Shown: in pieces, positions 4,370 to 64,000 of the stretch
How the letters are laid out: each line of letters starts with the position of its first letter
How positions within the stretch are numbered: position 1 is the stretch's first letter
NCBI GenBank assembly: GCA_035906255.1
Contig: JAMIFM010000022.1
Span: forward strand, 6,856-70,855
Length of the DNA stretch: 64,000 nucleotides
Direction of reading: 5' to 3'
DNA from: Bacteroidia bacterium
Lineage (GTDB): Bacteria; Bacteroidota; Bacteroidia; UBA8524
Notes under the pieces: model-generated
What the model was told of the DNA's origin: nothing
The model's database searches: none
The model's input: only the letters and a program-made list of their open reading frames with translations
Position numbers and translations under genes: made by a program

Positions 4370-4395
4370 CAGTTCATAACTAACTGTGAACCTGA

Positions 4396-5670
4396 ATGCA
4401 GAAAACAAAAAACGTTTCGCTGTTGATAACAGTGGCCGCTTTGGGCTACTTTGTAGATATATACGACCTTATTCTTTTTAATGTAATTAAACTCAAAAGC
4501 CTTGAGGCGTTAGGCATTACCGGTCAGCAGCAATTTGAATACGAAAAACTGTTGTTTAACTGCCAAATGGGCGGTATGCTTATAGGCGGTATTTTATGGG
4601 GCATTTTGGGAGATAAAAAAGGCCGTGTTTCGGTGCTTTTCGGCTCAATTCTTTTATATTCATTAGCAAACATTGTAAATGCCTTTGCCACAGGTATTGT
4701 TGATTATTCGATATACCGTTTTATAGCAGGGGTGGGGCTTGCGGGCGAATTGGGTGCAGGGATTACCCTTGTTGCCGAAACCATGCACCGCGAAAAACGC
4801 GGATACGGAACGATGATAATTGTAACGTTTGGCGCATTAGGAGCTGTTTTAGCGGCTACAATAGGAAAAGAGGGAGAGAACATTGCCCGATGGTTAAACG
4901 GGCTGCTATCAGTTAATTTAATGGGTTGGCAAATAGCGTATCTGTTAGGTGGTATTTTGGGTATGTTGCTGTTGCTGATGAGGGCAGGTGCATACGAATC
5001 GGGAATGTTTGAAAGTTTACACAAAACTTCTACTGTACCTAAAGGGGCATTTTTATCACTGTTTACTGAGCGTAAACGCTTTGTAAAATACCTGAACTGT
5101 ATATTAATTGGTTTGCCGATATGGTTTGTGGTGGGGGTACTTATTAATTTTTCGCACAAGTTTTATGCAGAAACCTTTGCGGGACTTGAAAAACAGCAAC
5201 TGGTGGCTGATGCTATTATGTACACCTACTTGGGGCTATCTTTCGGTGATTTGATAAGCGGTTTATTAAGCCAATGGTTTAGAAACCGTAAGAAAATAGT
5301 GTTGGGGTATATCATCGGTATTATTGTGCTGGTGGTGGTATATTTACTGCGTTTTGATATATCGTACCGTCAGTTTAATCTGCTGTGCTTCTTATTGGGC
5401 TCTGCAACGGGTTATTGGGCGTTGTTTGTAACCATAGCCGCCGAGCAGTTTGGTACCAATTTGCGCAGCACGGTTACTTCAACTGTTCCCAACTTTGTAC
5501 GCGGGGCAGTAGTGCCTATTACTTTCTTTTTCGGGATGATACTTAACAGTGCAGGTGCTGTTACAGCAGCTATTGTAGTAGGTTCGGTTTGTTTGGGTTT
5601 GGCCTTTATTGCCACCCTTGCCGTTCCCGAAACCTTCGATAAAGATTTGGATTATTTGGAAACTATATAA
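4396..5670 (+). CDS. MFS transporter
   Basis: 424 aa with ~12 predicted TM helices and the GDKKGR MFS loop motif. A TAACTAACT..AACCT motif lies immediately upstream (see findings). Confidence 0.75.
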   Translation: MQKTKNVSLLITVAALGYFVDIYDLILFNVIKLKSLEALGITGQQQFEYEKLLFNCQMGGMLIGGILWGILGDKKGRVSVLFGSILLYSLANIVNAFATGIVDYSIYRFIAGVGLAGELGAGITLVAETMHREKRGYGTMIIVTFGALGAVLAATIGKEGENIARWLNGLLSVNLMGWQIAYLLGGILGMLLLLMRAGAYESGMFESLHKTSTVPKGAFLSLFTERKRFVKYLNCILIGLPIWFVVGVLINFSHKFYAETFAGLEKQQLVADAIMYTYLGLSFGDLISGLLSQWFRNRKKIVLGYIIGIIVLVVVYLLRFDISYRQFNLLCFLLGSATGYWALFVTIAAEQFGTNLRSTVTSTVPNFVRGAVVPITFFFGMILNSAGAVTAAIVVGSVCLGLAFIATLAVPETFDKDLDYLETI

Positions 5671-11073: not shown

Positions 11074-11089
11074 TTTTATATTTTAATTC

Positions 11090-11610
11090 TCCCGATTGGA
11101 GAATGTCGAAGTGGAGCAGAGGTGATGGTTGTTGCGGATAGAGAGAAAAAAGCAGAAACAATTTTCGTCATTGCGATAAAACCGTCTTCGGGTTTAGAAG
11201 CAATCCGTTTGCATAGTTTCAACGGGATTGCTTCAACCAAGCTGCGCAAGGCATTGCAATGACGGGGTGGTGTGTTTCTTAACTCACCCCAGCTATTGGC
11301 AAGACTTCGATTACTCAATTTCTCCCTCTCTATGCAAAAGAGAGGGACGACGTGGTGAACGTCGGGCTTTGTAATTATTCGGGGGTGAGTTAAAAGGCAC
11401 ACCTCCCTCAATCCCTCTTTATTCAAGGAGGGGAGCCACCCTGCAAGCCATTTACAGACGTACGAATATTTTGTCTAACCTGATAACTTTTAACAGATAA
11501 CCAATCTGTGAGCCAGTGCCGTTGCCAAGTTCCCCTCCTTGGTTGAGTTTGCGGGAAAGGCAAGGAGGGGTTAGGGGAGGGTCTTTTAAATCAACCTGCT
11601 TAGGCAATAC
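11090..11610. repeat. copy B (largest) of the mosaic intergenic repeat family
   Basis: GC-rich palindromic modules gtcattgcgataaaaccgtcttcgggtttagaagcaatccg, ggaggggag/ctcccctcc and agagggacgacgtgg. Its reverse complement is found at 50240-50290. Confidence 0.6.
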
Positions 11611-11613
11611 CGT

Positions 11614-12870
11614 TTATGTTCCCGGGGCTTGTAACTCAGCGTAAAAACCCTGAGGGTCTTCGCCAATATAGGTTATTGTACCTTTAAGCGTTTGCCCGTG
11701 ATTAAATGATGAAATATTAATGGCTTTAAGGTATCTACGAGGATTAAGTCCCATAAGCCATGTGCCGCTCGGCTTCCATATCGATCCCGCCGAGGGGTAA
11801 TACGCCTCTTTTACCATATAGCTATATTTATTGACAAGTGTAGCAATAACTTCCATTTCAGGCATGCTATCGTATTGTAAAGTACCTTTTAGCGTTTCTC
11901 CGTGATCATCACTAAATATATTCAGCTTTATTACGTGTTGTTTTAGGTAGCCGAATGTCCATCTGTTGATGGGGTTTTCCGGTAATTCTCCCAAGTCGAT
12001 TTGAACTTTATAATTGTTATGTATCAGTGCGTAAAGTACCTGCTGCTGGGTTTGCTCAAACATAAAGTTTCGCGTATTAAGACACCAGTTAATATAGTTT
12101 TTGAGTTGGAAATTCTCGGTGTTTGCTATATATGCATCTAATGCGGTTTGCGGCCCATCATCAAACTTAGACTTAACAATATAGGGAGCTTCAAACTCAG
12201 CCCCGTAAGTAAATAGTTGCTTGATTACCCCCCTAAAGAGATTTAATACATGATCGTGTCTACCTAATCTAAGGTTTACAAAATCAATATAGTTATTTAT
12301 GGTTGCTGTATCGGTATTACGATTGGTGGCGGGCGAAAGGGATAAGTAATAGGTGCCGTTCCAATTCCTAAAGTTTTCACTAATTATACTAAAAAAATAT
12401 TTAAAGTGATCTATACCGGTAGCTTCGCTAATGGGATTGTCCCAGAATACATCCAGTGCGTTTAATTTGTGATAAGACATAAATCCATAAAGATTGCTTG
12501 CAAATCGGTTTATATCTCTTTTAGGGTCGTCGGATACAAATAACTGGTTAATCATGTTTTTATCATTAGAAGCTAATGTAATTCCCAGTTTAATATTAGA
12601 GTTGTTTTCTTTGGCATCGCGTGTGAGGTTCTTCATATATATCGGACTGTCTGTTTGCAAGGTATATGAAGAACCATCCCCTTGGGGTATGGTGTATGCA
12701 CTTGTGGGAACAATCTTTACTGAGTACATATATAAAATATCTATACTTTGGTAAACATCATATTTGATAAGGTTTTGATAGCTGCTGTCAGGGTCGTCGT
12801 ACTTGGTTCCAAAAATGTCGTGCTCTAAATAAATCCAAGCGTTGGAAAGGTTTTGCGGGGTTGTTTGCAT
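11614..12870 (-). CDS. two-domain protein: GH18 (chitinase-like) TIM-barrel lacking the catalytic Glu, plus a C-terminal OAA-family lectin
   Basis: 418 aa. The N-terminal ~280 aa follow the GH18 strand pattern: AWIYLEH, IDILYMYSVKI, KLGITLAS and LNALDVFWDNP. The last is in place of DGxDxDWE. The C-terminal ~135 aa hold two internal repeats, SDDHGETLKGTLQY and NHGQTLKGTITYIGEDPQGF, that align with OAA repeats (GDDGQTLNGTMTYAGEGPIGF). No signal peptide. Confidence 0.6.
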   Translation of the reverse strand: MQTTPQNLSNAWIYLEHDIFGTKYDDPDSSYQNLIKYDVYQSIDILYMYSVKIVPTSAYTIPQGDGSSYTLQTDSPIYMKNLTRDAKENNSNIKLGITLASNDKNMINQLFVSDDPKRDINRFASNLYGFMSYHKLNALDVFWDNPISEATGIDHFKYFFSIISENFRNWNGTYYLSLSPATNRNTDTATINNYIDFVNLRLGRHDHVLNLFRGVIKQLFTYGAEFEAPYIVKSKFDDGPQTALDAYIANTENFQLKNYINWCLNTRNFMFEQTQQQVLYALIHNNYKVQIDLGELPENPINRWTFGYLKQHVIKLNIFSDDHGETLKGTLQYDSMPEMEVIATLVNKYSYMVKEAYYPSAGSIWKPSGTWLMGLNPRRYLKAINISSFNHGQTLKGTITYIGEDPQGFYAELQAPGT

Positions 12871-13382
12871 AATGATAAGGTTTAGTTAGTTAGCTGTATA
12901 ATTAATAGTTTATCAAATATATTAAAACATTAGATGTTTTTAAGTGTTTATTTTTTTTAAATAATATTCTTAATAACTATTAGGTAGAGCTTAAAGCGTG
13001 AGGTATTAGTGTATGGACATAGTATATATTTGCCCGAAGTTTCCTCGCTACGCGTCGGAATGACAGGATGGGTGATGACGTTTTTGGGAGGTGTTTATCT
13101 CAAATGCAAAAAATGCATCAGAAAATTTTTAAATGCTGTGTTTGTTCTTTAGCATTTCCAATTATATGGGAGTGAATGTTCTTTGATTTGAAACCCGACC
13201 GGAAGAAACCCTTGGTAATAGCGTAACAAAAATAACAATGTAACCGAGTAACATCGTAACACGGTTGTTTTTACGAGGTTAATACACCGTAAATCAAAAT
13301 CGCGTATACTTTAAAATTTGAGGGGCAGGTGAGGCTTAGTGTTGTATATTGTAGTATTTGCTATTTGGAAATGAGCTATAAA

Positions 13383-13415
13383 CAAAAACTCCCGACGAAC
13401 AAAGTTCATCGGGAG
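13383..13415 (-). terminator. rho-independent terminator downstream of nrdA
   Basis: A 12-bp stem (ctcccgacgaac/gttcatcgggag, one mismatch) is followed on the minus strand by a T-run. Confidence 0.6.
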
Positions 13416-13486
13416 CGGAGATTTATATCAGACAATTTGAAACAGTGACTTGGAGCAAGATTCCGAAACAAGTTCGGGATGACTTT

Positions 13487-17086: not shown

Positions 17087-17788
17087 GGCTTTAGCTGTGT
17101 TTTGGTTACTACTTCCTAAAGGGTAATTTTGTGCTTCTTTCTTCTAAATCAATTAGGTACCGATAAAAATTGCCCTGTCGTTTCCAACAGGACATACTGG
17201 CCTAATTGCCTATACAAATCTTCGTTTATTAAATAGTTTTACCAACCCTGAGATTTTCACATTTCCACAAAAACAGAGTGTATAACTAATTATCAACACG
17301 ACGGCCTTAGAAGCAGTGGTAACAGAGGGCTACAAAGGGAGTTTATCTACACGTAATGTTTGCTTAATATTTTTATAATGTGAAAAGAGTGTGTTAAAGA
17401 TGTACTACAACCATTGAAAACAGTAGGTTTTTATAGCTAAAAATGACTGAGTGGTATTAAATACACTGCTTTAGCCCTTATTTTTATAGACAATCGGCTG
17501 TATGCCTTTATTTATAAAGGATTGAGGGAAACGAACGTTTAACCAATGGTTATGGGCTTACGTAGCAGGGATTTACGGGTAAATGACTAAGTGGTCTTTT
17601 ACTAAAAAGTTAAAAGTTTTAGAAGAAAAGCAATGTGGATAGAGTTTTTTAGAAATATTACCCTGTGTTTTAGAAAAGAAACAATTGTTGCTTTATAGTA
17701 CCGTTTTACCGTTTCATTCACATTTTGTAAAAAGTGTTTCAAGGTAAATTAGTACGTTTGCCAAACAAATAAACTAAACGCAACCACT

Positions 17789-32712: not shown

Positions 32713-32826
32713 CAGAAAACACATACTTCCAGTGTTTTAAAACTGATTTTTTGTGATGGTTTCGTATGTATGGTTACAACCTTTATCCATAGTTTTTCGA
32801 TTAAAGGGTATAAACTAACCAATACA

Positions 32827-33519
32827 ATGAAAAAATTTTTTACTCTATCAGTAGGGCTGTGCTTTGCTATTTCAGCTTTTGCCCAAAAAGACGTTGAGAT
32901 AACGCTGATTAGCCCGAAAACAGGCGACAAAATCTATGTAATGGAGGCATTATCCCTTACTTACAGTGTTAAAAATGTAGGAGTTGATGTTCTTACAGCG
33001 ACCGACTCGATATTTGTGAATATGAAAATGGATGGTGATTATGTGCTCGGGGCGTTTTATCACAGATACGTTCCGCACAACACACTTGCTGTAGGTGATA
33101 GTGTTTTTTACACCATAAGTTTTGTGTTTACTCAGCAGGAAATTGATGATTTTCCTTTTTGTTTTGAATTGGAAACAAGCAACAACGGGCAGCCTTTTGA
33201 TTCACAATCAGCTAATAATGAAAGCTGCGCTATGATTACCGTTGATGAACGCACGGCTGCCGGTATTGAGGATGTCAAGCACAATGGAGTAAAATTATAT
33301 CCTAACCCAGCAACCAACACTATAACAATTGAAAGTTCGTTACTAAATGTATCTAAGGCAGTTATTACCGATGTTTTAGGGGCGGTGAAAACAGAAGTTG
33401 ATTATGTGACTGGCAGTAGCTTATCAGTTAACTACCTCAGCAACGGAATTTACTTTTGCCGATTGACTGACGATGCAAATAACATAGTTGGTATAATTAA
33501 ATTTATTGTAGCACGATAA
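32827..33519 (+). CDS. secreted protein with T9SS C-terminal sorting domain
   Basis: Signal peptide MKKFFTLSVGLCFAISAFAQ. The C-terminus is KLYPNPATNTITIE...IKFIVAR. The ORF-track start at 32770 is probably too far upstream. Confidence 0.6.
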   Translation: MKKFFTLSVGLCFAISAFAQKDVEITLISPKTGDKIYVMEALSLTYSVKNVGVDVLTATDSIFVNMKMDGDYVLGAFYHRYVPHNTLAVGDSVFYTISFVFTQQEIDDFPFCFELETSNNGQPFDSQSANNESCAMITVDERTAAGIEDVKHNGVKLYPNPATNTITIESSLLNVSKAVITDVLGAVKTEVDYVTGSSLSVNYLSNGIYFCRLTDDANNIVGIIKFIVAR

Positions 33520-33540
33520 AACACAACATATAGATACGAA

Positions 33541-33580
33541 AAAGCCCCATTCAAAAAAGGATGGGGCTTTTATTTTTTTG
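33541..33580. terminator. bidirectional rho-independent terminator
   Basis: A 9-bp stem (aagccccat/atggggctt) is followed by a T-run. Confidence 0.6.
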
Positions 33581-33591
33581 GCGATACTACC

Positions 33592-34815
33592 TTACAAACT
33601 TGAGCGCGAAGCAGTAGGATTAGTCATAGCATTATAATACACAAAAGGCCAATGTTGCCACCATTCCTGCATTAGCGAATTAGTGGGCACATTTGCGTCA
33701 TTGTTGCCGGGGAAAAGGCTGGCAGGTAAAGTGCTACCTTCATACACCACAGGAAATTCTCCTTGTACCACATAAGAATTACCAACGTGTACATAATTAA
33801 AGTTAGGGAAACCGTTGGGGAACAATTCTTTCAGTTTTTCGGCCAAGTCTGCTATAAATGCGGGAGGTTTTATAGGTAACAGGGCTTTAATCATACTTGG
33901 ATTGTTCAAATCGTTTATCCACTCAATGGTTGGTGGTATTTGGGGCACGGTATCCAAGTTGTTTACCACACGGTAAATCATGTTGCTTTTAGTTAAGCCG
34001 TTGTCAAAGTTATTAGCAAGCGCATCATTAGCCCATTTGGGTGAGGCAAATGTATATGTTTTAAGGTTCACGGTAGTGATACCCGCAGCTTGCAATCCTC
34101 CGGCCTGTACCCAAGCCGAGAAAACGCCTGCCATTGCAGCACCCAAACTGTGTCCTGTTACAAACAAGTTAATACTGCTTTTGCCCAACGCTTGGAAAGA
34201 CTCAATAAGGTTATGTAATGACCCGTTTGGAGCCTTCACTGTATATTCTTCAACAGCAACACGGAAACCGAAGTGCATGCAAGGCTCAATCACAGGAGGT
34301 TGTTTAGGGTCGGCAGGTTGGTTGTAATAGTCAGGGTTTACAATATAGGTGGCCGAACTGTTATAAAATGAGTAATCAAGCGGCCCAGCAGGTACAGGAA
34401 CAAACGAAACGTCTTCTAAAACGCCTGTTAGATTTTCGGTTCCGGCAAAGGCAACTGCATACGCATCTAACGATTCGTTGTAGGTAACAATCACATTGTT
34501 AGAACCAAATTTAAGATTGGCAATAATAGGAGGGATGTTAGCTGGGGCAGCTTGCAAAATTGAGCGGTGCCAAACATTATATAACAAAGTATCCCAAACG
34601 GGGAAACCGGGAGTCCAGCCTGATGGCCAAATAGGGTCAACGGGATAGGGGTGAACGGTTCCATTGTCATCCGGAATAGGATTGTTACGGTTGTTTGCAG
34701 GTTTTGTTACAATAAAACCTTTTCCGTCAGGGTTTTTGTGCGAGCCAAGTATATCGGCTGCATACGATAGCGCCAGCATTTGCTGTGCTTCCGTTAAATT
34801 AAAATTCGGTTGCAT
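33592..34815 (-). CDS. lipase class 3 (alpha/beta-hydrolase) family protein
   Basis: 407 aa. It has a GHSLGAA nucleophile elbow. No signal peptide. Confidence 0.65.
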   Translation of the reverse strand: MQPNFNLTEAQQMLALSYAADILGSHKNPDGKGFIVTKPANNRNNPIPDDNGTVHPYPVDPIWPSGWTPGFPVWDTLLYNVWHRSILQAAPANIPPIIANLKFGSNNVIVTYNESLDAYAVAFAGTENLTGVLEDVSFVPVPAGPLDYSFYNSSATYIVNPDYYNQPADPKQPPVIEPCMHFGFRVAVEEYTVKAPNGSLHNLIESFQALGKSSINLFVTGHSLGAAMAGVFSAWVQAGGLQAAGITTVNLKTYTFASPKWANDALANNFDNGLTKSNMIYRVVNNLDTVPQIPPTIEWINDLNNPSMIKALLPIKPPAFIADLAEKLKELFPNGFPNFNYVHVGNSYVVQGEFPVVYEGSTLPASLFPGNNDANVPTNSLMQEWWQHWPFVYYNAMTNPTASRSSL

Positions 34816-34928
34816 TTGAATGTGTGAGGTTTAGTTAGTTAAATATGTGCAATTTGACATTACGCAATCGCTGTAGTCAGTTGCTAAATTATAACAAAAC
34901 CCTCTACGCACAATAACCTTATTGTAAA

Positions 34929-36032
34929 TTATTTATATTGCTCATTCACACGGTTTTGGTCGTAAATTCTACCGTCAAGCAATGCTGAATATTTCTTTGC
35001 TTTTTTGCTGCCATATTCTACGTAGGCTTTATTTGCCCACAGTTTAGCATCGTCAAGATTTCCTAATACCTCATTGGCTACTGCAATGTTATAACATATA
35101 CGGGCGGCGTCTTTATCGCCAATGCTTTGTAATAGCGAACCTTTCCATGTCTCAAGTGCCGCAGCCCAATCGTTTACTTCTGCCTGTTTGCTTCCTGTTG
35201 CTACTGAGGCCACGTGCTTACTCTTTTTATAATACTTTCGAGTAAGTGTAATTGGCATCGGTGCAATTTTGTATGCGTATGAGTTTCCTGCCAACTGGCT
35301 TACATACCTTGCCGCATCAGATTTAGCGATTAGTTTTGTTAAAGCATCCTGTACGCTGTTACCTGTGGTTTCCCAAGTATTGCTTTGGGTAATCAATTGT
35401 TGGTCTAATATGGCTTTTTCAACAGGGTCATATATTCTAAATCCTATGGTAACATTGCCTACACCTTTGGCATAAAACTCATTGGTTTCAACGGTCTTTT
35501 TCACACCATTTTCTGTAATTTCTTTCTTCACCAATCGCTTACCATCGGTAACAATAAAATCGGTATCATAAATCTCAATCGCCATCACAGCGTTTGTATG
35601 GTATTTGCTGCAAAGGTTTTCAATATCACCCCAACTGATAGGTTCAGGAAAAGCCCTGCTGATACTGTTTCCCGGGAAAATCTCAGCAGCATTTTTCACT
35701 ACATACCTGTTTGAGAAATTGATGGTGCTTTGAAAAGCGTTGATAGCAGCTTGGGTTCCTGCGCGGTCTTCCCCGGGCAATTCACCTGTTAAAAGACCTT
35801 CAATAATACCTACTGCCTGAGAATTAAAATAAGTGCGGTTGAGGATGAGCAGCGTATCAACGTGTGAGGGTAGGGTTACATCAGCGGGACGTGTAGCTTT
35901 GATGCTAACGGTACGCATACTGCATGATGATAGGGTAATTGCAACGACAATGGATGCAGTTACTAAAAAGCGGTAAATGTTTAAGCTATACATAGTTTGT
36001 GTTTTGTATAGCTTAAACATTATTGATGCCAA
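34929..36032 (-). CDS. lipoprotein with C-terminal TPR-like helices
   Basis: The lipobox LSSC follows the internal Met (MYSLNIYRF..., about 35993). A TPR-like region lies at the C-terminus. Confidence 0.45.
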   Translation of the reverse strand: MASIMFKLYKTQTMYSLNIYRFLVTASIVVAITLSSCSMRTVSIKATRPADVTLPSHVDTLLILNRTYFNSQAVGIIEGLLTGELPGEDRAGTQAAINAFQSTINFSNRYVVKNAAEIFPGNSISRAFPEPISWGDIENLCSKYHTNAVMAIEIYDTDFIVTDGKRLVKKEITENGVKKTVETNEFYAKGVGNVTIGFRIYDPVEKAILDQQLITQSNTWETTGNSVQDALTKLIAKSDAARYVSQLAGNSYAYKIAPMPITLTRKYYKKSKHVASVATGSKQAEVNDWAAALETWKGSLLQSIGDKDAARICYNIAVANEVLGNLDDAKLWANKAYVEYGSKKAKKYSALLDGRIYDQNRVNEQYK

Positions 36033-36033
36033 A

Positions 36034-37284
36034 TTATTCTTTGGGTGCAGAGGTAGCGTATTTACGCAAAGGCCTTATTAATAATGCGGTACTTATAAAA
36101 GTTAATACGGCACCTACAATAAATGCAGCTCCCGGAAAAACAAACGGAGTATCTTTTCCTGTGAAGTAATTAAAAACACCGTTCATTAATACAGGGCCGA
36201 TAATGGCTGATAAACTCATCAACGAAGTTAGAGTACCTTGCAATTCTCCTTGCTCATTAAGCGGTACTTGGGCACTTACCACACTTTGCAGCGCAGGACC
36301 GGCAATGCCACCTAAACAATACGGTGCTAAAAAGGCAAACATCATCCAGCCTGCATTGGCAAAGCCAAAGCCTACCAATCCTACACCGTACAATATAAAA
36401 CCAATAAATATGCTGGTTTTAAGCCCCCATTTGGGTAGTATAATTCGTATTAACCCACCCTGAACAATAGCAACTAAAATACCTACTACAGCCAACGACC
36501 AACCTATATCAGCTTTAGACCAATCAAAACGGTACTTGGTGTAAAACGTCCAGTTAGATTGTACGGCATGAGCAGCCACATAAATACACAAAAAGGCAAA
36601 TAGCATACTTTGCAGTACAGGAAATTTTTTAAGGTTAAAAAGTGTGCTAAAAGGGTTTGATTGCGCAATGCTAAACGTTCTGCGTTTTTCTTTAGGTAAT
36701 GATTCGGGAAGGATAAAATATCCGTACAATACGTTTAATAAGCTAAGCACCGCAGCGGCATAAAAAGGCATACGGGTTCCGAAATGGTCGCCCAACCAAC
36801 CGCCCAGCGCAGGCCCGATAATAAACCCTACACCAAAAGCAACGCCTACCATACCAAAGTTTTGGGCACGGTTTTCATTCGTGCTAATATCAGCAATATA
36901 GGCATTTGCTGTTGTAAAACTCGCTCCAAAAACACCTGCCAAAATACGGCCTGCAAACAGCCAAGCTATAGTAGGGGCAAAGGCACTTAACAAATAATCG
37001 ATGCCGAGACCTAATAAAGAAAGTAGTAACACAGGCCTACGTCCATATTTATCGCTAAGTGCTCCCAAGATGGGTGAGCATAAAAATTGCATCAAAGCAA
37101 AAGAAGCCATTAGTAAGCCCCCGATACCCGATGCTTCATTCACTTCTTTTCCGGTCAGTTCTTTTAATAAATCAGGAATAATTGGAATGATAATGCCAAA
37201 ACCGATTACATCAATTAATACGGTGGCAAAAATGAACCCCATCGACGCAGCGCGTTTGGAGTTGTTGTTTTGGGTTGTTTCCAT
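36034..37284 (-). CDS. MFS efflux transporter, TCR/Tet family
   Basis: TetA-like motifs GxLSDRxGRRPVLL are present. The start is taken at METTQNN. Confidence 0.7.
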   Translation of the reverse strand: METTQNNNSKRAASMGFIFATVLIDVIGFGIIIPIIPDLLKELTGKEVNEASGIGGLLMASFALMQFLCSPILGALSDKYGRRPVLLLSLLGLGIDYLLSAFAPTIAWLFAGRILAGVFGASFTTANAYIADISTNENRAQNFGMVGVAFGVGFIIGPALGGWLGDHFGTRMPFYAAAVLSLLNVLYGYFILPESLPKEKRRTFSIAQSNPFSTLFNLKKFPVLQSMLFAFLCIYVAAHAVQSNWTFYTKYRFDWSKADIGWSLAVVGILVAIVQGGLIRIILPKWGLKTSIFIGFILYGVGLVGFGFANAGWMMFAFLAPYCLGGIAGPALQSVVSAQVPLNEQGELQGTLTSLMSLSAIIGPVLMNGVFNYFTGKDTPFVFPGAAFIVGAVLTFISTALLIRPLRKYATSAPKE

Positions 37285-37413
37285 AGTTTGGTAGTTGACG
37301 TGCGAAAATAGGAAAGCCCGCCTACATAGCAACTCTTACAATGTGATATTTTTAAAAAAATTGCGGCACAAGAAAACATCCTGTGCCGCATATAAGTAAT
37401 TAATAAACAATAC

Positions 37414-40534: not shown

Positions 40535-40999
40535 ATGGAACGTAAGACCAAAGTAGCCGCTGAAAGCGGCAAGCAAGAACTTATTGTAACAAGAGAATTT
40601 GATTTACCTGTTAACTTACTGTTTAAGGCATACGTAGTGCCTGAAATTGTAGAACAATGGATGGGTACAAAAGTGCTGAAACTTGAAACTAAGAGACACG
40701 GAAGTTACCAGTACATTACTACCGACCCTATGGGCAACCAACACGGATTTAACGGCACAATACATGAGTTTGTACAAGACGAAAAAATTACCCGCACGTT
40801 TGAGATGGAAAACACCCCGTTTCCTGTGCAGATTGAATACTTAGCGTTTGAGCCTTTAACCGAAAACACCAGTAAACTAACCATGCAAATAGTGTATAAA
40901 TCAGTTGAGCACAGAGATCAAATGCTAAAAATGCCTTTTGCACAAGGTATTAATATGGCGCATAACCGATTGCAGGAAATAGTAAACCAACTAAAATAA
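40535..40999 (+). CDS. SRPBCC (AHSA1-like) domain protein (paralog)
   Basis: 154 aa with the same fold signature as the ORF at 39606. Confidence 0.7.
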   Translation: MERKTKVAAESGKQELIVTREFDLPVNLLFKAYVVPEIVEQWMGTKVLKLETKRHGSYQYITTDPMGNQHGFNGTIHEFVQDEKITRTFEMENTPFPVQIEYLAFEPLTENTSKLTMQIVYKSVEHRDQMLKMPFAQGINMAHNRLQEIVNQLK

Positions 41000-49984: not shown

Positions 49985-50345
49985 TTACTTTGCGTTGGTT
50001 TATGTGTTGATTTGCTTATCTCATCCCTGTCCTTCTGAGCGATAGCAAAGAATCCTACACCAACTGTGTTTACAAAGCGGGATAAGGTGTTTCCTTCGTC
50101 AGCATGACAATACCCCCTAAATCCCCTGTGGGGACTTTACCAACGACGTACCAGCGCGGTTGCCATCCTGAGAATGCCGAAGGGTGCGGCTGTTTCCCTC
50201 CTTGGGTGGTTAGTGGGTTGGTAAGAAGGGACTAAGGGAGGTGTCAAACGGATTGTTTCTAAACCCGAAGACGGTTTTTCGCAATGACGATAGTTGAGCG
50301 AGTGCGGGGCAGTTCTCCTGAGTTTATCGAAGGAGCGCGTATAGT
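49985..50345. repeat. copy E of the mosaic intergenic repeat family
   Basis: It contains the reverse complements of modules in copies B and D, and ends with the ctcctgagtttatcgaaggagc module that begins copy D. Confidence 0.6.
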
Positions 50346-61396: not shown

Positions 61397-61489
61397 GGTT
61401 TGGGTATTTAGCGGTATTTCAAATCTATTTAAAAAATGGCTACCTTGTTTGTTCAATTTGGTGCGATTTATGTTGCATAAAGACGACCT

Positions 61490-64000
61490 ATGAAAAAAAT
61501 TATTTCTGCATTTATTTTACTCTTTTCTACTGCGGTACTTACCGCGCAACCTTCGCCGCCAACATTAATAGCTCCGTCTAATAATGCTACAAAACAAAAA
61601 GCCAACGCACGGCTATTGTGGACTACCCCTGTTGGGGCTGTTCGTTTCCACTATCAGGTAGATACGGTAAATACGTTTAACAGTGCTGCGCTGCTTGAAG
61701 ACACCATTACTGCGTCACAAATGTATATGAACGACCAACTTTTCGGCAAAAAGTATTTTTGGCGGGTAAGGGCGGGCAATGCCACTGTATTTGGTAATTG
61801 GAGCAGTACATACAGCTATACGGTGTATGAAAAACCGGAGGTATATTCAACAGGAAGTAACTTACTTACATCAAGCATCCGTGTGCACCAAATTATCGGA
61901 GCATTTGTAGAATATCAGATGGATACGGTAAATACGTTTAACAGCGGGGCTTTCCGTTCGTTTTCTTCGCTGTATAAAGACAGTGCGTCTGCACGTTATC
62001 AAAACCTGCACTACAATACCAAGTATTATATAAGGGCAAGAGCATACCACGCAAAAGACACCTCTCCTTATACTGCTACAACCAGTCACACCACATTTGG
62101 GCCTTTAACCGTTAAGCCCTCAATTGGTTCAACGGTAAATAATTTCAATTTCGATTTTCAATTCGGCAGGACTACCGCTACTAAAGATACCGTTGAGCGG
62201 GTTGAATTTGAATTAGACAGCAGCAGTAACTTTAACAGCCCCTTGTTGTTTACTACTGTTATAGATACAACTGATATTTTAAAAAGCCCTGCGTCTTTTC
62301 CGTTTTTATACGGCAAAACCTACCATTGGAGGGTACGTTGCCTTCACGCAGAAGACACCAGTAAATGGGTGCAATCAAGGTTTACTATGTTTTCATTCCC
62401 TATGTATAACCTTTCGCAAGTAATCGGCGGACGCTTAAATCCTTCGCGACCCACTATAACAGTAACTTCGGGCAATGGTGCCGATTATTTTATTGTAATG
62501 GTTGATACAGTAAACACATTTGCTAACCCTATATATACCGATACGTTTAGCGGCGTACTAAATCCGGCTAAACAATTACCCTATTTGCGATACAACCGCA
62601 CGCATTTTTTCAGGGTTCATGCGGTAAGAGGTACCGACACTTCGGCTTCAATAATTCAACAGTCAACTACAATACAGTCAAACGCACTTGTTACCCCCTA
62701 TAACTGGTCGGTATTATCAGGTGTGAACGAAACATTTTGGTGGCAAGAGATAGCAGGCAATAATTATGAAGTAGAGTTTGATACCACTCTTGCGTTTAAC
62801 AGTTGGCGAAAAATAACCCGAAGCGGTTTAACAACGGACTCTACGTTTATTGAAGGCTTGGCTTACGGCCAAAAGTTTTATTGGAGGGTGAGAATGACCA
62901 ACCCTGTGGATGTTAGTCTTTGGTCAGCAGTACGTGAGTTTACAACCAAATCATATCCAGCTCAATTGTGGCCAAGTGATAACCAAAAGGATTTTATTGT
63001 AAAAGAATCGCTTTCGTGTGAGGTTATTGATGGTACAAGGTTGTATGAGTTTTATTTTTCAGAAGATTCGTTGTTTAACATTTATGCGGTTGATACATCT
63101 ACAAAGGTGGATATGTTTGGTGATATTGAATTGCCAATGGGTCGCAACAATTTAAAGTACGAAACCAAGTATTTCTGGAAAGTTCGCGCCATACACAGCA
63201 ACGATACCTCAAAATGGTCGCCTGTATGGCGTTTCACCACCCGCAAATATTTACCTCCACCTGTAAAACCTGTGTTAACCAGTCCTGCAAATAATGTTAC
63301 CGGAGTTCCGCACACGCCTTATATTGTTAAACTGATTTGGCAATTGCAGGCTGATGTTGAGTTTGAAATACATGTAGCTAAAAACACCAATTTTAACAAT
63401 CTGGTACTGCACGGTTTCACTGTGGGCAACACTAACAATGAAATGGAAATTGATAGCTTGGAACCCCGCACAACCTATTACTGGCGTGTAAGAGCAACTA
63501 ACGGCGATGATACCAGTGCGTGGTCGGATGTGTGGAAATTTACCACACTGCCCGCTATCCGTTTTCCGCAATTGCTATCACCCGATGGTGTTACCAACGT
63601 AAGCACAAATGTTACCCTTGATTGGGAAGATATTGACGGTGCAAAAGGCTATCGCTACCGTTTATCCACTACCCCATCGTTTATTGGTATTCCTGAGGTT
63701 TCGGTTACCCAATCCGAAGCGCAGGTTAATCTGTTGCCAAATACCAATTACTATTGGATTGTACTTACCTATAACGACTACTTCTTTACCAATTACGGAT
63801 TTACAGCGGCATTCAGAACAGGAAATTCAACCGGAATTGAAGGCACATCAGAGGTTACTACTTATAGTTATCCTAACCCCTTTTCTACAGAGGTTGTAAT
63901 AAGTAGCCCCGATAATACAGTGCAATCGATTGAGTTTTACAATCTGCAAGGGCAACTTTGTTATAGCTACACTCCTGCAAACCCTGCTTTGCAAAACCAC
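61490..64000 (+). CDS. large T9SS-sorted surface protein made of tandem ~95-aa repeats (5' partial; runs off the window)
   Basis: It is not in the ORF track because it runs to the window end without a stop. I translated it by hand. The signal peptide is MKKIISAFILLFSTAVLTAQ. There are eight or more repeats, each carrying Y-x-W-R-V-R-A...(D)TS-x-WS. The final residues (YPNPFSTEVVISS...) look like the start of a T9SS CTD. Confidence 0.65.
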   Translation, partial: MKKIISAFILLFSTAVLTAQPSPPTLIAPSNNATKQKANARLLWTTPVGAVRFHYQVDTVNTFNSAALLEDTITASQMYMNDQLFGKKYFWRVRAGNATVFGNWSSTYSYTVYEKPEVYSTGSNLLTSSIRVHQIIGAFVEYQMDTVNTFNSGAFRSFSSLYKDSASARYQNLHYNTKYYIRARAYHAKDTSPYTATTSHTTFGPLTVKPSIGSTVNNFNFDFQFGRTTATKDTVERVEFELDSSSNFNSPLLFTTVIDTTDILKSPASFPFLYGKTYHWRVRCLHAEDTSKWVQSRFTMFSFPMYNLSQVIGGRLNPSRPTITVTSGNGADYFIVMVDTVNTFANPIYTDTFSGVLNPAKQLPYLRYNRTHFFRVHAVRGTDTSASIIQQSTTIQSNALVTPYNWSVLSGVNETFWWQEIAGNNYEVEFDTTLAFNSWRKITRSGLTTDSTFIEGLAYGQKFYWRVRMTNPVDVSLWSAVREFTTKSYPAQLWPSDNQKDFIVKESLSCEVIDGTRLYEFYFSEDSLFNIYAVDTSTKVDMFGDIELPMGRNNLKYETKYFWKVRAIHSNDTSKWSPVWRFTTRKYLPPPVKPVLTSPANNVTGVPHTPYIVKLIWQLQADVEFEIHVAKNTNFNNLVLHGFTVGNTNNEMEIDSLEPRTTYYWRVRATNGDDTSAWSDVWKFTTLPAIRFPQLLSPDGVTNVSTNVTLDWEDIDGAKGYRYRLSTTPSFIGIPEVSVTQSEAQVNLLPNTNYYWIVLTYNDYFFTNYGFTAAFRTGNSTGIEGTSEVTTYSYPNPFSTEVVISSPDNTVQSIEFYNLQGQLCYSYTPANPALQNH

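What the first reader, a model, noticed from the sequence alone, without database searches (positions are those of the whole stretch)
12878..12892. Identical 15-nt motif AGGTTTAGTTAGTTA just upstream of the lectin-fusion and lipase start codons
On the coding (minus) strand both genes read ...TAACTAACTAAACCT-N7/11-ATGCAAMC... . Both proteins begin MQ. The lectin-fusion copy is at 12878-12892 and the lipase copy at 34826-34840. A related form, TAACTAACTgtgAACCT-2nt-ATG, precedes the MFS transporter at 4377-4393. A 15-mer shared at the same position relative to the start codon of two otherwise unrelated secreted-type proteins, neither with a signal peptide, is very unlikely by chance. It could be a translational or transcriptional control element, or an sRNA or riboregulator target. 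It might mark both proteins as cargo of a common regulon or secretion route. A class-3 lipase and a lectin are both plausible effector-like activities.
Basis: seen in the sequence. Interest (0 to 1): 0.5.

Follow-up and report, generated by a model that had tools for sequence, protein, structure and literature searches.

The report
Shared Bacteroidota ribosome-loading leader word
The 15-base word shared by the lectin and lipase genes is most likely part of the ordinary G-free, A-rich stretch that Bacteroidota use instead of a Shine-Dalgarno site to start translation, and it does not look like a tag for a common regulon or secretion route.

Summary
The sequence facts hold. TAACTAACTAAACCT lies on the minus strand at 12878-12892, 7 nt before the GH18/OAA-lectin ATG. 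The match is exactly 15 nt, so it is not a duplication.

A shared 15-mer alone is at chance level: the window holds 12 repeat pairs of 15 nt or more. Two leaders sharing one is moderately unlikely, at roughly 0.01-0.05 per window.

The window is from Bacteroidota, which do not use Shine-Dalgarno sites. Of these, 27-28 sat within 30 nt upstream of an ORF on the sense strand, against 2 of 54 in other phyla. The gap to the ATG peaked at 6-8 nt. The downstream genes are unrelated: dnaA, TonB receptors, DsbD, peptidases, a sulfatase and transporters.

The 3' half, CTAAA, is a position-specific word at -15 in unrelated Bacteroidota leaders, which fits the known A-rich non-SD ribosome site. Both leaders are G-free and predicted to be unpaired.

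A lineage-specific CTAACTAAC element is not excluded, because that core is conserved in orthologues. Verdict: an ordinary instance of a known kind, of low interest.

The parts
12878..12892 (-). Copy 1 of TAACTAACTAAACCT, in the 5' leader of the GH18/OAA-lectin gene. It occupies -22..-8 relative to the ATG. CTAAA starts at -15, and AAA is at -13..-11.
   Evidence: predicted unpaired
34827..34841 (-). Copy 2 of TAACTAACTAAACCT, in the 5' leader of the class-3 lipase gene. It occupies -26..-12. CTAAA starts at -19, which is 4 nt upstream of the usual place.
   Evidence: predicted unpaired; exact in L015 and 1 substitution in L122
4377..4393 (+). Related form TAACTAACTGTGAACCT, 2 nt before the MFS ATG and 7 nt after the stop of the GAF gene. 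It shares the 9-mer TAACTAACT and then AACCT. Unlike the other two, it lies in a predicted hairpin (GUUCAUA/UGUGAAC).
11614..12870 (-). GH18 + OAA-family lectin fusion gene (418 aa, starts MQTTPQ).
33592..34815 (-). Class-3 lipase gene (407 aa, starts MQPNFN). The N-terminus is conserved in 16 homologues, so the start codon is well placed.
4396..5670 (+). MFS transporter gene.
12914..12921 (-). TATATTTG, a perfect match to the Bacteroidota -7 promoter consensus TAnnTTTG, 21 nt upstream of copy 1. It is conserved in the 60%-identical orthologue locus L129. This places the motif inside the transcribed leader.
13388..13416 (-). Intrinsic-terminator-like hairpin (13 pairs plus a T run) after the ribonucleotide reductase gene. 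It implies that the lectin gene is its own transcription unit.
34884..34891 (-). TAATTTAG, within ttataatttag. It is a one-mismatch -7-like box conserved in L015, L122 and L123, and is a candidate promoter for the lipase gene. This is inferred only.

Best explanation
The 15-mer is not a discrete regulatory site. It is the core of the Shine-Dalgarno-less translation-initiation region of two unrelated Bacteroidota mRNAs.

Its 3' half (CTAAAcc) is an instance of the phylum's position-specific A-rich 'non-SD ribosome binding site'. Its 5' half is a short (CTAA)n-like, G-free tract.

Together they keep the 25-30 nt before the start codon single-stranded. With no G present, the stretch cannot contain AUG, GUG or UUG. 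In the lectin gene they also place adenines at -11 to -13, where they favour 30S loading, possibly through bS1.

The 15-nt identity between the two genes is best explained as coincidence or convergence within a narrow, low-complexity leader vocabulary, helped by its microsatellite-like form.

Shown here: location in the leaders, absence of G, lack of predicted structure, phylum-specific association with start codons, and the fixed spacing. Inferred: the effect on translation, and the coincidence argument.
For: 1. The window is Bacteroidota. It has a T9SS Por_Secre_tail domain and DUF6340. Those MFS homologues that carry a source name are mostly named Bacteroidia/Bacteroidota.

2. Both leaders are the most G-poor in the window, with 0 and 1 G in -30..-1. 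From the motif to the ATG they are predicted to be fully unpaired.

3. Of 120 exact hits in one genome per species, 66 are Bacteroidota. Of these, 27-28 lie within 30 nt upstream and in the sense orientation of an ORF of at least 60 aa, against 2 of 54 in other phyla (Fisher p = 9e-7).

4. The spacing from the motif end to the start codon is 6-8 nt in 16 of 30 cases, with the mode at 7. That puts CTAAA at -15.

5. In 423 Bacteroidota leaders that lack TAACTAAC (and so were not selected through the searched motif), CTAAA starts at -15 in 11 cases. It starts at -16 in 5 and at -17 in 5, against a background of 1.4 per position (Poisson p = 3e-7). It is not seen there in 256 leaders from other phyla.

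6. The same set reproduces the A peak at -14..-10 and the depletion of G.

7. This matches published work. Adenines at -11..-14, -6 and -3, and avoidance of AUG, promote initiation in Flavobacterium johnsoniae (PMC6847099). GeneMarkS-2 'group B' describes an A-rich non-SD RBS, with a TAAAAA core and a spacer of about 7 nt in Flavobacterium (PMC6028130).

8. In the lectin leader, A falls at -3, -6, -11, -12 and -13.

9. The downstream genes are functionally unrelated.

10. All nine lipase orthologue leaders have 0-1 G in -30..-1, while the exact word survives only in close relatives.

11. G-free 15-mers with stops in all three frames are themselves concentrated in leaders in Bacteroidota: 5 of 29 loci, against 1 of 39 elsewhere.
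Against: - In the lipase gene the A-run sits at -15..-17, 4 nt off the preferred place, with C at -3.
- The 5' core CTAACTA(AC) is rare in general Bacteroidota leaders (1 of 319). Yet it is kept in orthologues whose proteins are only 60-68% identical (lectin L129; lipase L123, L125, L244), and it occurs in three leaders of one window. That hints at sequence-specific constraint beyond base composition.
- The motif's association with start regions (27 of 66) is higher than the class control (5 of 29). The Fisher p is 0.03, or 0.13 after collapsing orthologues.
- The spacing is more sharply peaked than a position-independent profile predicts (binomial p = 5e-5).
- No expression or ribosome-profiling data were available.
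Confidence: 0.6

Rival explanations
1. A specific cis-element with core CUAACUAAC in the mRNA leader (or CTAACTAAC in DNA) is recognised by a trans-acting factor such as an RNA-binding protein, an sRNA or a repressor. It would define a small lineage-specific regulon that includes the lectin, lipase and MFS genes.
For: - CTAACTAACTA is one of three conserved blocks in the lectin leader when the window is compared with L129, whose protein is only 60% identical.
- (C)TAACTAAC or CTAACTA persists in 6 of 9 lipase orthologue leaders.
- Three of the four TAACTAAC occurrences in the window lie in leaders in the sense orientation.
- CTAACTA is rare in unrelated Bacteroidota leaders, at 1 of 319.
Against: - Its distance from the ATG drifts from -15 to -33 among lipase orthologues, and it is lost in 3 of 9.
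- No complementary partner exists in the window.
- The MFS copy lies in a hairpin, unlike the other two.
- The three gene functions are unrelated, and no regulator gene lies next to them.
- The three-leader count is post hoc.
- The conserved blocks may simply reflect constraint on a good unstructured leader.
Confidence: 0.2
2. Pure coincidence with no functional meaning for the shared word. Two AT-rich intergenic stretches happen to share 15 nt.
For: - The window has 11 other repeat pairs of 15 nt or more.
- The pattern with mismatches occurs at the chance level.
- The expected number of leader pairs sharing 15 nt or more is 0.01-0.06 per window. Scaled to a whole genome of several thousand genes, that implies many such pairs (my arithmetic).
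Against: - Both copies are conserved in relatives: L001, L015, L122 and partly L129 and L123.
- Across the phylum the word has a fixed spacing to start codons. The sequence is therefore under constraint where it sits, even if the identity between the two genes is accidental.
Confidence: 0.12
3. The word is a promoter element for an alternative sigma factor or for leaderless transcription.
For: It lies close to the start codon and is AT-rich. A sigma-70-like hexamer pair from the generic scan overlaps it.
Against: - It does not match the Bacteroidota -33/-7 consensus.
- A conserved perfect TATATTTG box lies 21 nt upstream in the lectin gene.
- In other genomes the word also occurs directly after terminator hairpins and between closely spaced genes.
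- Its spacing is tied to the ATG.
- The generic scan found fewer hits than in shuffles.
Confidence: 0.04
4. The word is a remnant of a local duplication, a mobile element or a cloning artefact (an engineered three-frame stop cassette).
For: TAACTAACTAA carries stop codons in all three frames. In the literature it appears only as an engineered stop cassette or within primers.
Against: - The match is exactly 15 nt with unrelated flanks.
- The same leaders occur in independent metagenome assemblies (L001, L015, L122).
- Coverage by three-frame stops is not enriched in Bacteroidota leaders beyond what composition predicts: 51 observed against 44.8 +/- 5.8.
Confidence: 0.02

Closest known systems
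A-rich non-Shine-Dalgarno ribosome binding site of Bacteroidetes (GeneMarkS-2 'group B'; TAAAAA core with a spacer of about 7 nt in Flavobacterium; PMC6028130)
   Same: - Same phylum.
- Sense strand, a few nt upstream of the start codon.
- A-run preceded by T.
- Spacer mode of 7 nt.
- Present before first genes of operons and before internal genes alike.
   Different: - The word here is longer (15 nt), C-containing and repeat-like, (CTAA)n + ACC, rather than a plain A-run.
- The lipase copy is 4 nt further upstream than the usual place.
Upstream-adenine / Kozak-like determinants and AUG avoidance in Flavobacterium johnsoniae translation-initiation regions (Baez et al. 2019, PMC6847099)
   Same: - The lectin leader has A at -3, -6, -11, -12 and -13.
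- The leaders are G-free, so no competing AUG, GUG or UUG is possible.
- The leaders are predicted to be unstructured.
   Different: - Those determinants are single positions, not a conserved word.
- The lipase leader has C at -3 and lacks A at -12 and -13.
T7 gene 10 'epsilon' translational enhancer (UUAACUUUA). This is recalled from memory and was not tested.
   Same: It is an AU-rich, C-containing, G-free enhancer-like word upstream of the start codon.
   Different: Epsilon is proposed to pair with 16S rRNA helix 17 in E. coli. No pairing partner was tested here because the window has no rRNA gene, and the sequences differ.

Membership tests
Bacteroidota non-SD A-rich translation-initiation region | The host is a member of Bacteroidota/Bacteroidia. 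| tested here: met
   Por_Secre_tail (T9SS) and DUF6340 proteins are present. Named MFS homologues are mostly Bacteroidia/Bacteroidota MAGs. Orthologous loci share the synteny.
Bacteroidota non-SD A-rich translation-initiation region | Sense-strand location within about 5-25 nt upstream of the start codon, with no GGAGG-like Shine-Dalgarno sequence. | tested here: met
   The motif occupies -22..-8 (lectin) and -26..-12 (lipase). There are 1 and 0 G in -30..-1.
Bacteroidota non-SD A-rich translation-initiation region | An A-run at about -14..-11 (T/CTAAA starting near -15). | tested here: inconclusive
   Met for the lectin gene (CTAAA at -15, AAA at -13..-11). Not met for the lipase gene (CTAAA at -19). 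The reference profile was built from 423 leaders that lack TAACTAAC.
Bacteroidota non-SD A-rich translation-initiation region | Low secondary structure around the start codon, and no competing AUG nearby. | tested here: met
   Motif-to-ATG is unpaired in the MFE and centroid folds. The lectin leader has MFE -0.8 kcal/mol over 70 nt. The stretch is G-free, so it contains no start codons.
Bacteroidota non-SD A-rich translation-initiation region | Mutating the A-rich stretch lowers translation. | not testable with these tools
   This needs reporter assays or ribosome profiling.
Bacteroidota primary promoter (-33 TTTG / -7 TAnnTTTG) | A match to TAnnTTTG about 7 nt upstream of the transcription start. 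| tested here: not met
   The motif has no such match. A perfect TATATTTG lies 21 nt upstream of copy 1 and is conserved in L129.
Dispersed repeat, mobile element or local duplication | Similarity extends beyond the core, or there are terminal repeats or multiple longer copies. | tested here: not met
   The exact match is maximal at 15 nt and the flanks are unrelated.
Known cis-regulatory RNA (Rfam 15) | A covariance-model match at or near the site. | tested here: not met
   No hit at the gathering threshold in the window, and none at E<=1 around either site.
Regulon operator or sRNA target shared by functionally linked genes | The motif is enriched before one functional class of genes, or a complementary RNA exists. 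| tested here: not met
   Across the phylum the downstream genes are heterogeneous. No complement is found in the window. The source genome as a whole could not be tested.

The most novel reading that the evidence does not exclude
TAACTAACTAAACCT, that is (CTAA)n followed by AAACC at a fixed 6-8 nt from the start codon, could be a discrete translational enhancer that evolved convergently. Alternatively it could be the binding site of an unknown Bacteroidota leader-binding factor. It would then be used before dnaA, TonB-dependent receptors and other genes across several orders, and in this lineage before the lectin, lipase and MFS genes.
Probability: 0.15. Interest if true: 0.45.

Novelty: new member of a known kind. 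Interest (0 to 1): 0.15.

Why it matters
As it stands, this is an ordinary instance of how Bacteroidota start translation without a Shine-Dalgarno site. It should not be used to link the lectin and lipase functionally.

Two by-products may be useful:
- CTAAA at -15 is a sharp, phylum-specific positional word. It could refine start-codon calling in Bacteroidota.
- The exact 15-mer recurs at fixed spacing before many unrelated genes. That makes it a cheap candidate for a portable, unstructured ribosome-loading leader for Bacteroidota expression constructs.

Tried and rejected
1. Longer duplication or mobile element: rejected, because the match is exactly 15 nt.

2. Selection for three-frame stop codons (TAACTAACTAA): three-frame stop coverage and TAA counts in 408 Bacteroidota leaders equal the shuffled expectation. 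The stops are therefore incidental.

3. Known RNA families: none found.

4. Literature search for the word: it appears only as engineered stop cassettes or primers.

5. Viral contigs: 32 hits, of which 3 have an ATG 5-9 nt downstream, which is the chance level. This is uninformative for Bacteroidota, and planned composition-matched control scans were dropped.

6. Metagenome scan with the lipase alignment, meant to collect many orthologous leaders: it returned only distant class-3 lipases (24-41% identity), because the peptide patterns were generic. That scan was wasted.

7. Conservation test for the MFS copy: the nearest non-identical homologue (63%) is not syntenic and its upstream region is unrelated.

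8. Unbiased 6-mer enrichment in leaders outside the searched sites: the motif's hexamers are at most 2-fold enriched (AACTAA ranks 39 of 2796). There is no strong phylum-wide TAACTAAC motif.

Full report
**Observation**

On the minus strand the window reads ...cagcTAACTAACTAAACCTtatcattATGCAAACA at 12892-12878, upstream of ORF 11614-12870. It reads ...atattTAACTAACTAAACCTcacacattcaaATGCAACCG at 34841-34827, upstream of ORF 33592-34815. Pfam confirms a GH18 + OAA-lectin fusion, a class-3 lipase and an MFS transporter. The related form TAACTAACTGTGAACCT is on the plus strand at 4377-4393, 2 nt before the MFS ATG. The exact match cannot be extended beyond 15 nt and the flanks are unrelated. This removes the 'local duplication' refutation. 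'Both begin with MQ' is true but weak, because 8 of 58 ORFs in the window do.

**Chance**

A shared 15-mer is not remarkable in 64 kb.
- The window has 12 maximal repeat pairs of 15 nt or more, most of them inside unrelated coding regions.
- The pattern with up to 3 mismatches occurs 4 times against 3.94 expected.
- TAACTAAC occurs 4 times against 3.5 expected.

What is unusual is the placement. Among the 1540 pairs of the window's 56 leaders (-40..-1), the longest shared word is 15 nt and the next is 10. Counts fall about 3-fold per added base, which gives about 0.01 expected. Non-orthologous Bacteroidota leaders from different genomes share 15 nt or more at about 2-4e-5 per pair, or 0.03-0.06 per window. 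The coincidence is therefore unlikely in one window. Scaled to a whole genome of several thousand genes, it would be expected many times (my arithmetic).

**Organism and setting**

GC content is about 40%. A T9SS C-terminal sorting domain and DUF6340 are present, and named homologues are mostly Bacteroidia/Bacteroidota MAGs. These place the window in Bacteroidota, a phylum whose ribosomes ignore Shine-Dalgarno sequences (PMC6847099; PMC6028130).

The lectin gene follows a strong terminator of the ribonucleotide reductase gene (13416-13388). It also has a perfect -7 promoter box, TATATTTG, at 12921-12914, which is conserved in a 60%-identical orthologue locus. The motif therefore lies in the 5' UTR.

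The two leaders are the most G-poor in the window, with 1 and 0 G in 30 nt. They are predicted to be unpaired from the motif to the ATG. The MFS copy is different, because it sits in a small hairpin. Rfam finds nothing at either site.

**Distribution elsewhere**

- 66 hits are Bacteroidota (including Balneolaceae and Ignavibacteriaceae) and 54 are from other phyla.
- In Bacteroidota, 27-28 of the 66 lie within 30 nt upstream and in the sense orientation of an ORF of at least 60 aa. In other phyla the figure is 2 of 54 (Fisher p = 9e-7).
- The gap between the motif and the start codon is 6-8 nt in 16 of 30 cases, with the mode at 7.

The genes behind the motif are unrelated. They include DnaA, three TonB-dependent receptors, DsbD, M14 and M28 peptidases, a sulfatase, NagB/PIG-L, an amidohydrolase, MFS_2 and a Pfam-less 92-aa family. 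Cytoplasmic, inner-membrane, outer-membrane and secreted proteins are all represented. The word therefore cannot mark a secretion route or a functional regulon. Other Bacteroidota hits lie just after terminator hairpins or antisense within coding regions. In viral contigs the word shows no link to start codons.

**What the word is**

I collected 408-423 Bacteroidota leaders from the fetched loci, leaving out any that contain TAACTAAC, so the set was not selected through the searched motif. They reproduce the published profile:
- A rises to about 0.5 at -13..-11.
- G falls to about 0.12-0.14, against 0.19 in the whole sequences.
- TAAA starts preferentially at -15/-14.
- CTAAA starts at -15 in 11 leaders, and at -16 and -17 in 5 each, against 1.4 per other position (Poisson p = 3e-7).
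- No such peak exists in 256 leaders from other phyla.

With the modal spacing of 7 nt, the CTAAA inside the 15-mer starts exactly at -15. The lectin copy does this, and it also has A at -3 and -6. These are the positive determinants measured in Flavobacterium johnsoniae (PMC6847099). The lipase copy is 4 nt further upstream.

The 5' half is a (CTAA)n-like tract. The lectin leader reads gCTAACTAACTAAacc, which is three CTAA units. The three-frame stop codons it creates are incidental, because three-frame stop coverage in Bacteroidota leaders equals the shuffled expectation.

A class control shows that much of the start-codon association belongs to the class of sequence and not to this particular word. 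G-free 15-mers with stops in all three frames, taken away from the searched sites, lie in leaders at 5 of 29 loci in Bacteroidota and 1 of 39 elsewhere. The motif's 27 of 66 is higher, but only modestly (p = 0.03, or 0.13 after collapsing orthologues).

**Orthologues**

The lipase leader was compared across relatives.

| Locus | Protein identity to window | Leader word |
|---|---|---|
| L015 | not measured (start of protein near-identical) | exact 15-mer |
| L122 | 89% | TAACTAACTAAAtCTa |
| L123 | 68% | cTAACTAACaacac |
| L125 | 63% | CTAACTA, at a shifted position |
| L244 | 63% | CTAACTA, at a shifted position |
| L243 | 65% | no trace |
| L127 | 62% | no trace |
| L245 | 61% | no trace |

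All nine leaders, counting the window, have 0-1 G in the last 30 nt.

The lectin leader in L129 (60% identity) keeps TATATTTG, CTATTAATT and CTAACTAACTA as three conserved blocks. It rebuilds the A-run with a different sequence. L130 (47% identity) has none of these.

The most durable property is therefore the G-free, A-rich character. However, the CTAACTA(AC) core lasts longer than neutral sequence should, and it is rare in unrelated Bacteroidota leaders (1 of 319). This is the main evidence for the rival reading that a specific, lineage-restricted element exists. I could not test that reading genome-wide.

**Verdict**

Most likely (0.6), the 15-mer is part of the ordinary Shine-Dalgarno-less ribosome-loading region. 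Its identity between two genes would be a coincidence or convergence within a narrow leader vocabulary.

The alternatives are:
- a specific CUAACUAAC element bound by a factor (0.2)
- meaningless coincidence (0.12)
- a promoter element (0.04)
- a duplication or artefact (0.02)

The closest known descriptions are the GeneMarkS-2 'group B' non-SD RBS (PMC6028130) and the upstream-adenine determinants of Baez et al. (PMC6847099). Membership features are met for the lectin copy and only partly for the lipase copy. Novelty is that of a new member of a known kind, and interest is low.

Noticed in passing
window 12881-12885 (-), 17774-17778 (+), 40991-40995 (+), 61407-61411 (-); fetched Bacteroidota loci: CTAAA starting exactly at -15 from the ATG is a sharp, phylum-specific positional word. 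It occurs in 11 of 423 leaders that lack TAACTAAC, against a background of 1.4 per position, and is absent at that place in 256 leaders from other phyla. Four genes in this window carry it.
   Followed up: partly
L033 1737-1751, L055 689-703: The exact 15-mer precedes dnaA (12 nt before the ATG) in two Flavobacteriaceae MAGs.
   Followed up: partly
L011, L022, L086, L097 (Aquimarina), L062 (Tenacibaculum): A Pfam-less family of about 92 aa (MRRVIVDYKKLN...) carries the exact 15-mer 7-10 nt before its ATG in two genera, while the flanks differ.
   Followed up: no
L015 (CALRQL020000021.1): This contig is titled as an Agrobacterium sp. MAG. It is a close relative of the Bacteroidota lipase locus in this window, so it is probably mis-binned.
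   Followed up: no
window 32770-37332; L122, L123, L125, L127, L244: The gene order MFS, DUF6340, class-3 lipase, then a T9SS C-terminal-domain protein on the opposite strand is largely conserved in relatives (the T9SS-domain gene is present in L122, L123 and L125; an MFS gene is absent from L123). The ribonucleotide reductase genes next to the GH18-lectin are also conserved in L129.
   Followed up: partly
window 32813-32829: The T9SS-domain protein (listed as 32770-33519) more likely starts at ATG 32827 (MKKFF...). That ATG is preceded by AACTAAC at 32813-32819, which is conserved in L015 and L122.
   Followed up: partly
window 11178-11199 and 50257-50278: There is an exact 22-nt inverted pair, AAAACCGTCTTCGGGTTTAGAA, which is hairpin-like. 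Both copies lie inside TTG-start ORFs that may not be real genes; the one at 11076-11426 has no Pfam match, and the other was not scanned.
   Followed up: no
window 61661-61683 and 61922-61944; 35976-35992 and 36005-36021: There is a 23-nt direct repeat inside ORF 61490-64000. There is also a 17-nt inverted repeat at the DUF6340 / MFS gene junction.
   Followed up: no
L061, L072, L088; L050, L093, L120: In Marinilabiliales-type loci the 15-mer follows a conserved CCGGGCGGCTCCATCCTTTTACT tail. In Salibacteraceae-type loci it follows a terminator hairpin, apparently between convergent genes. Rfam finds nothing there.
   Followed up: partly
window 4372-4391: The MFS 'related form' lies in a predicted hairpin (GUUCAUA ... 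UGUGAAC) in the 26-nt gap between the GAF-domain gene and the MFS gene. Fold z-score is -1.6.
   Followed up: partly
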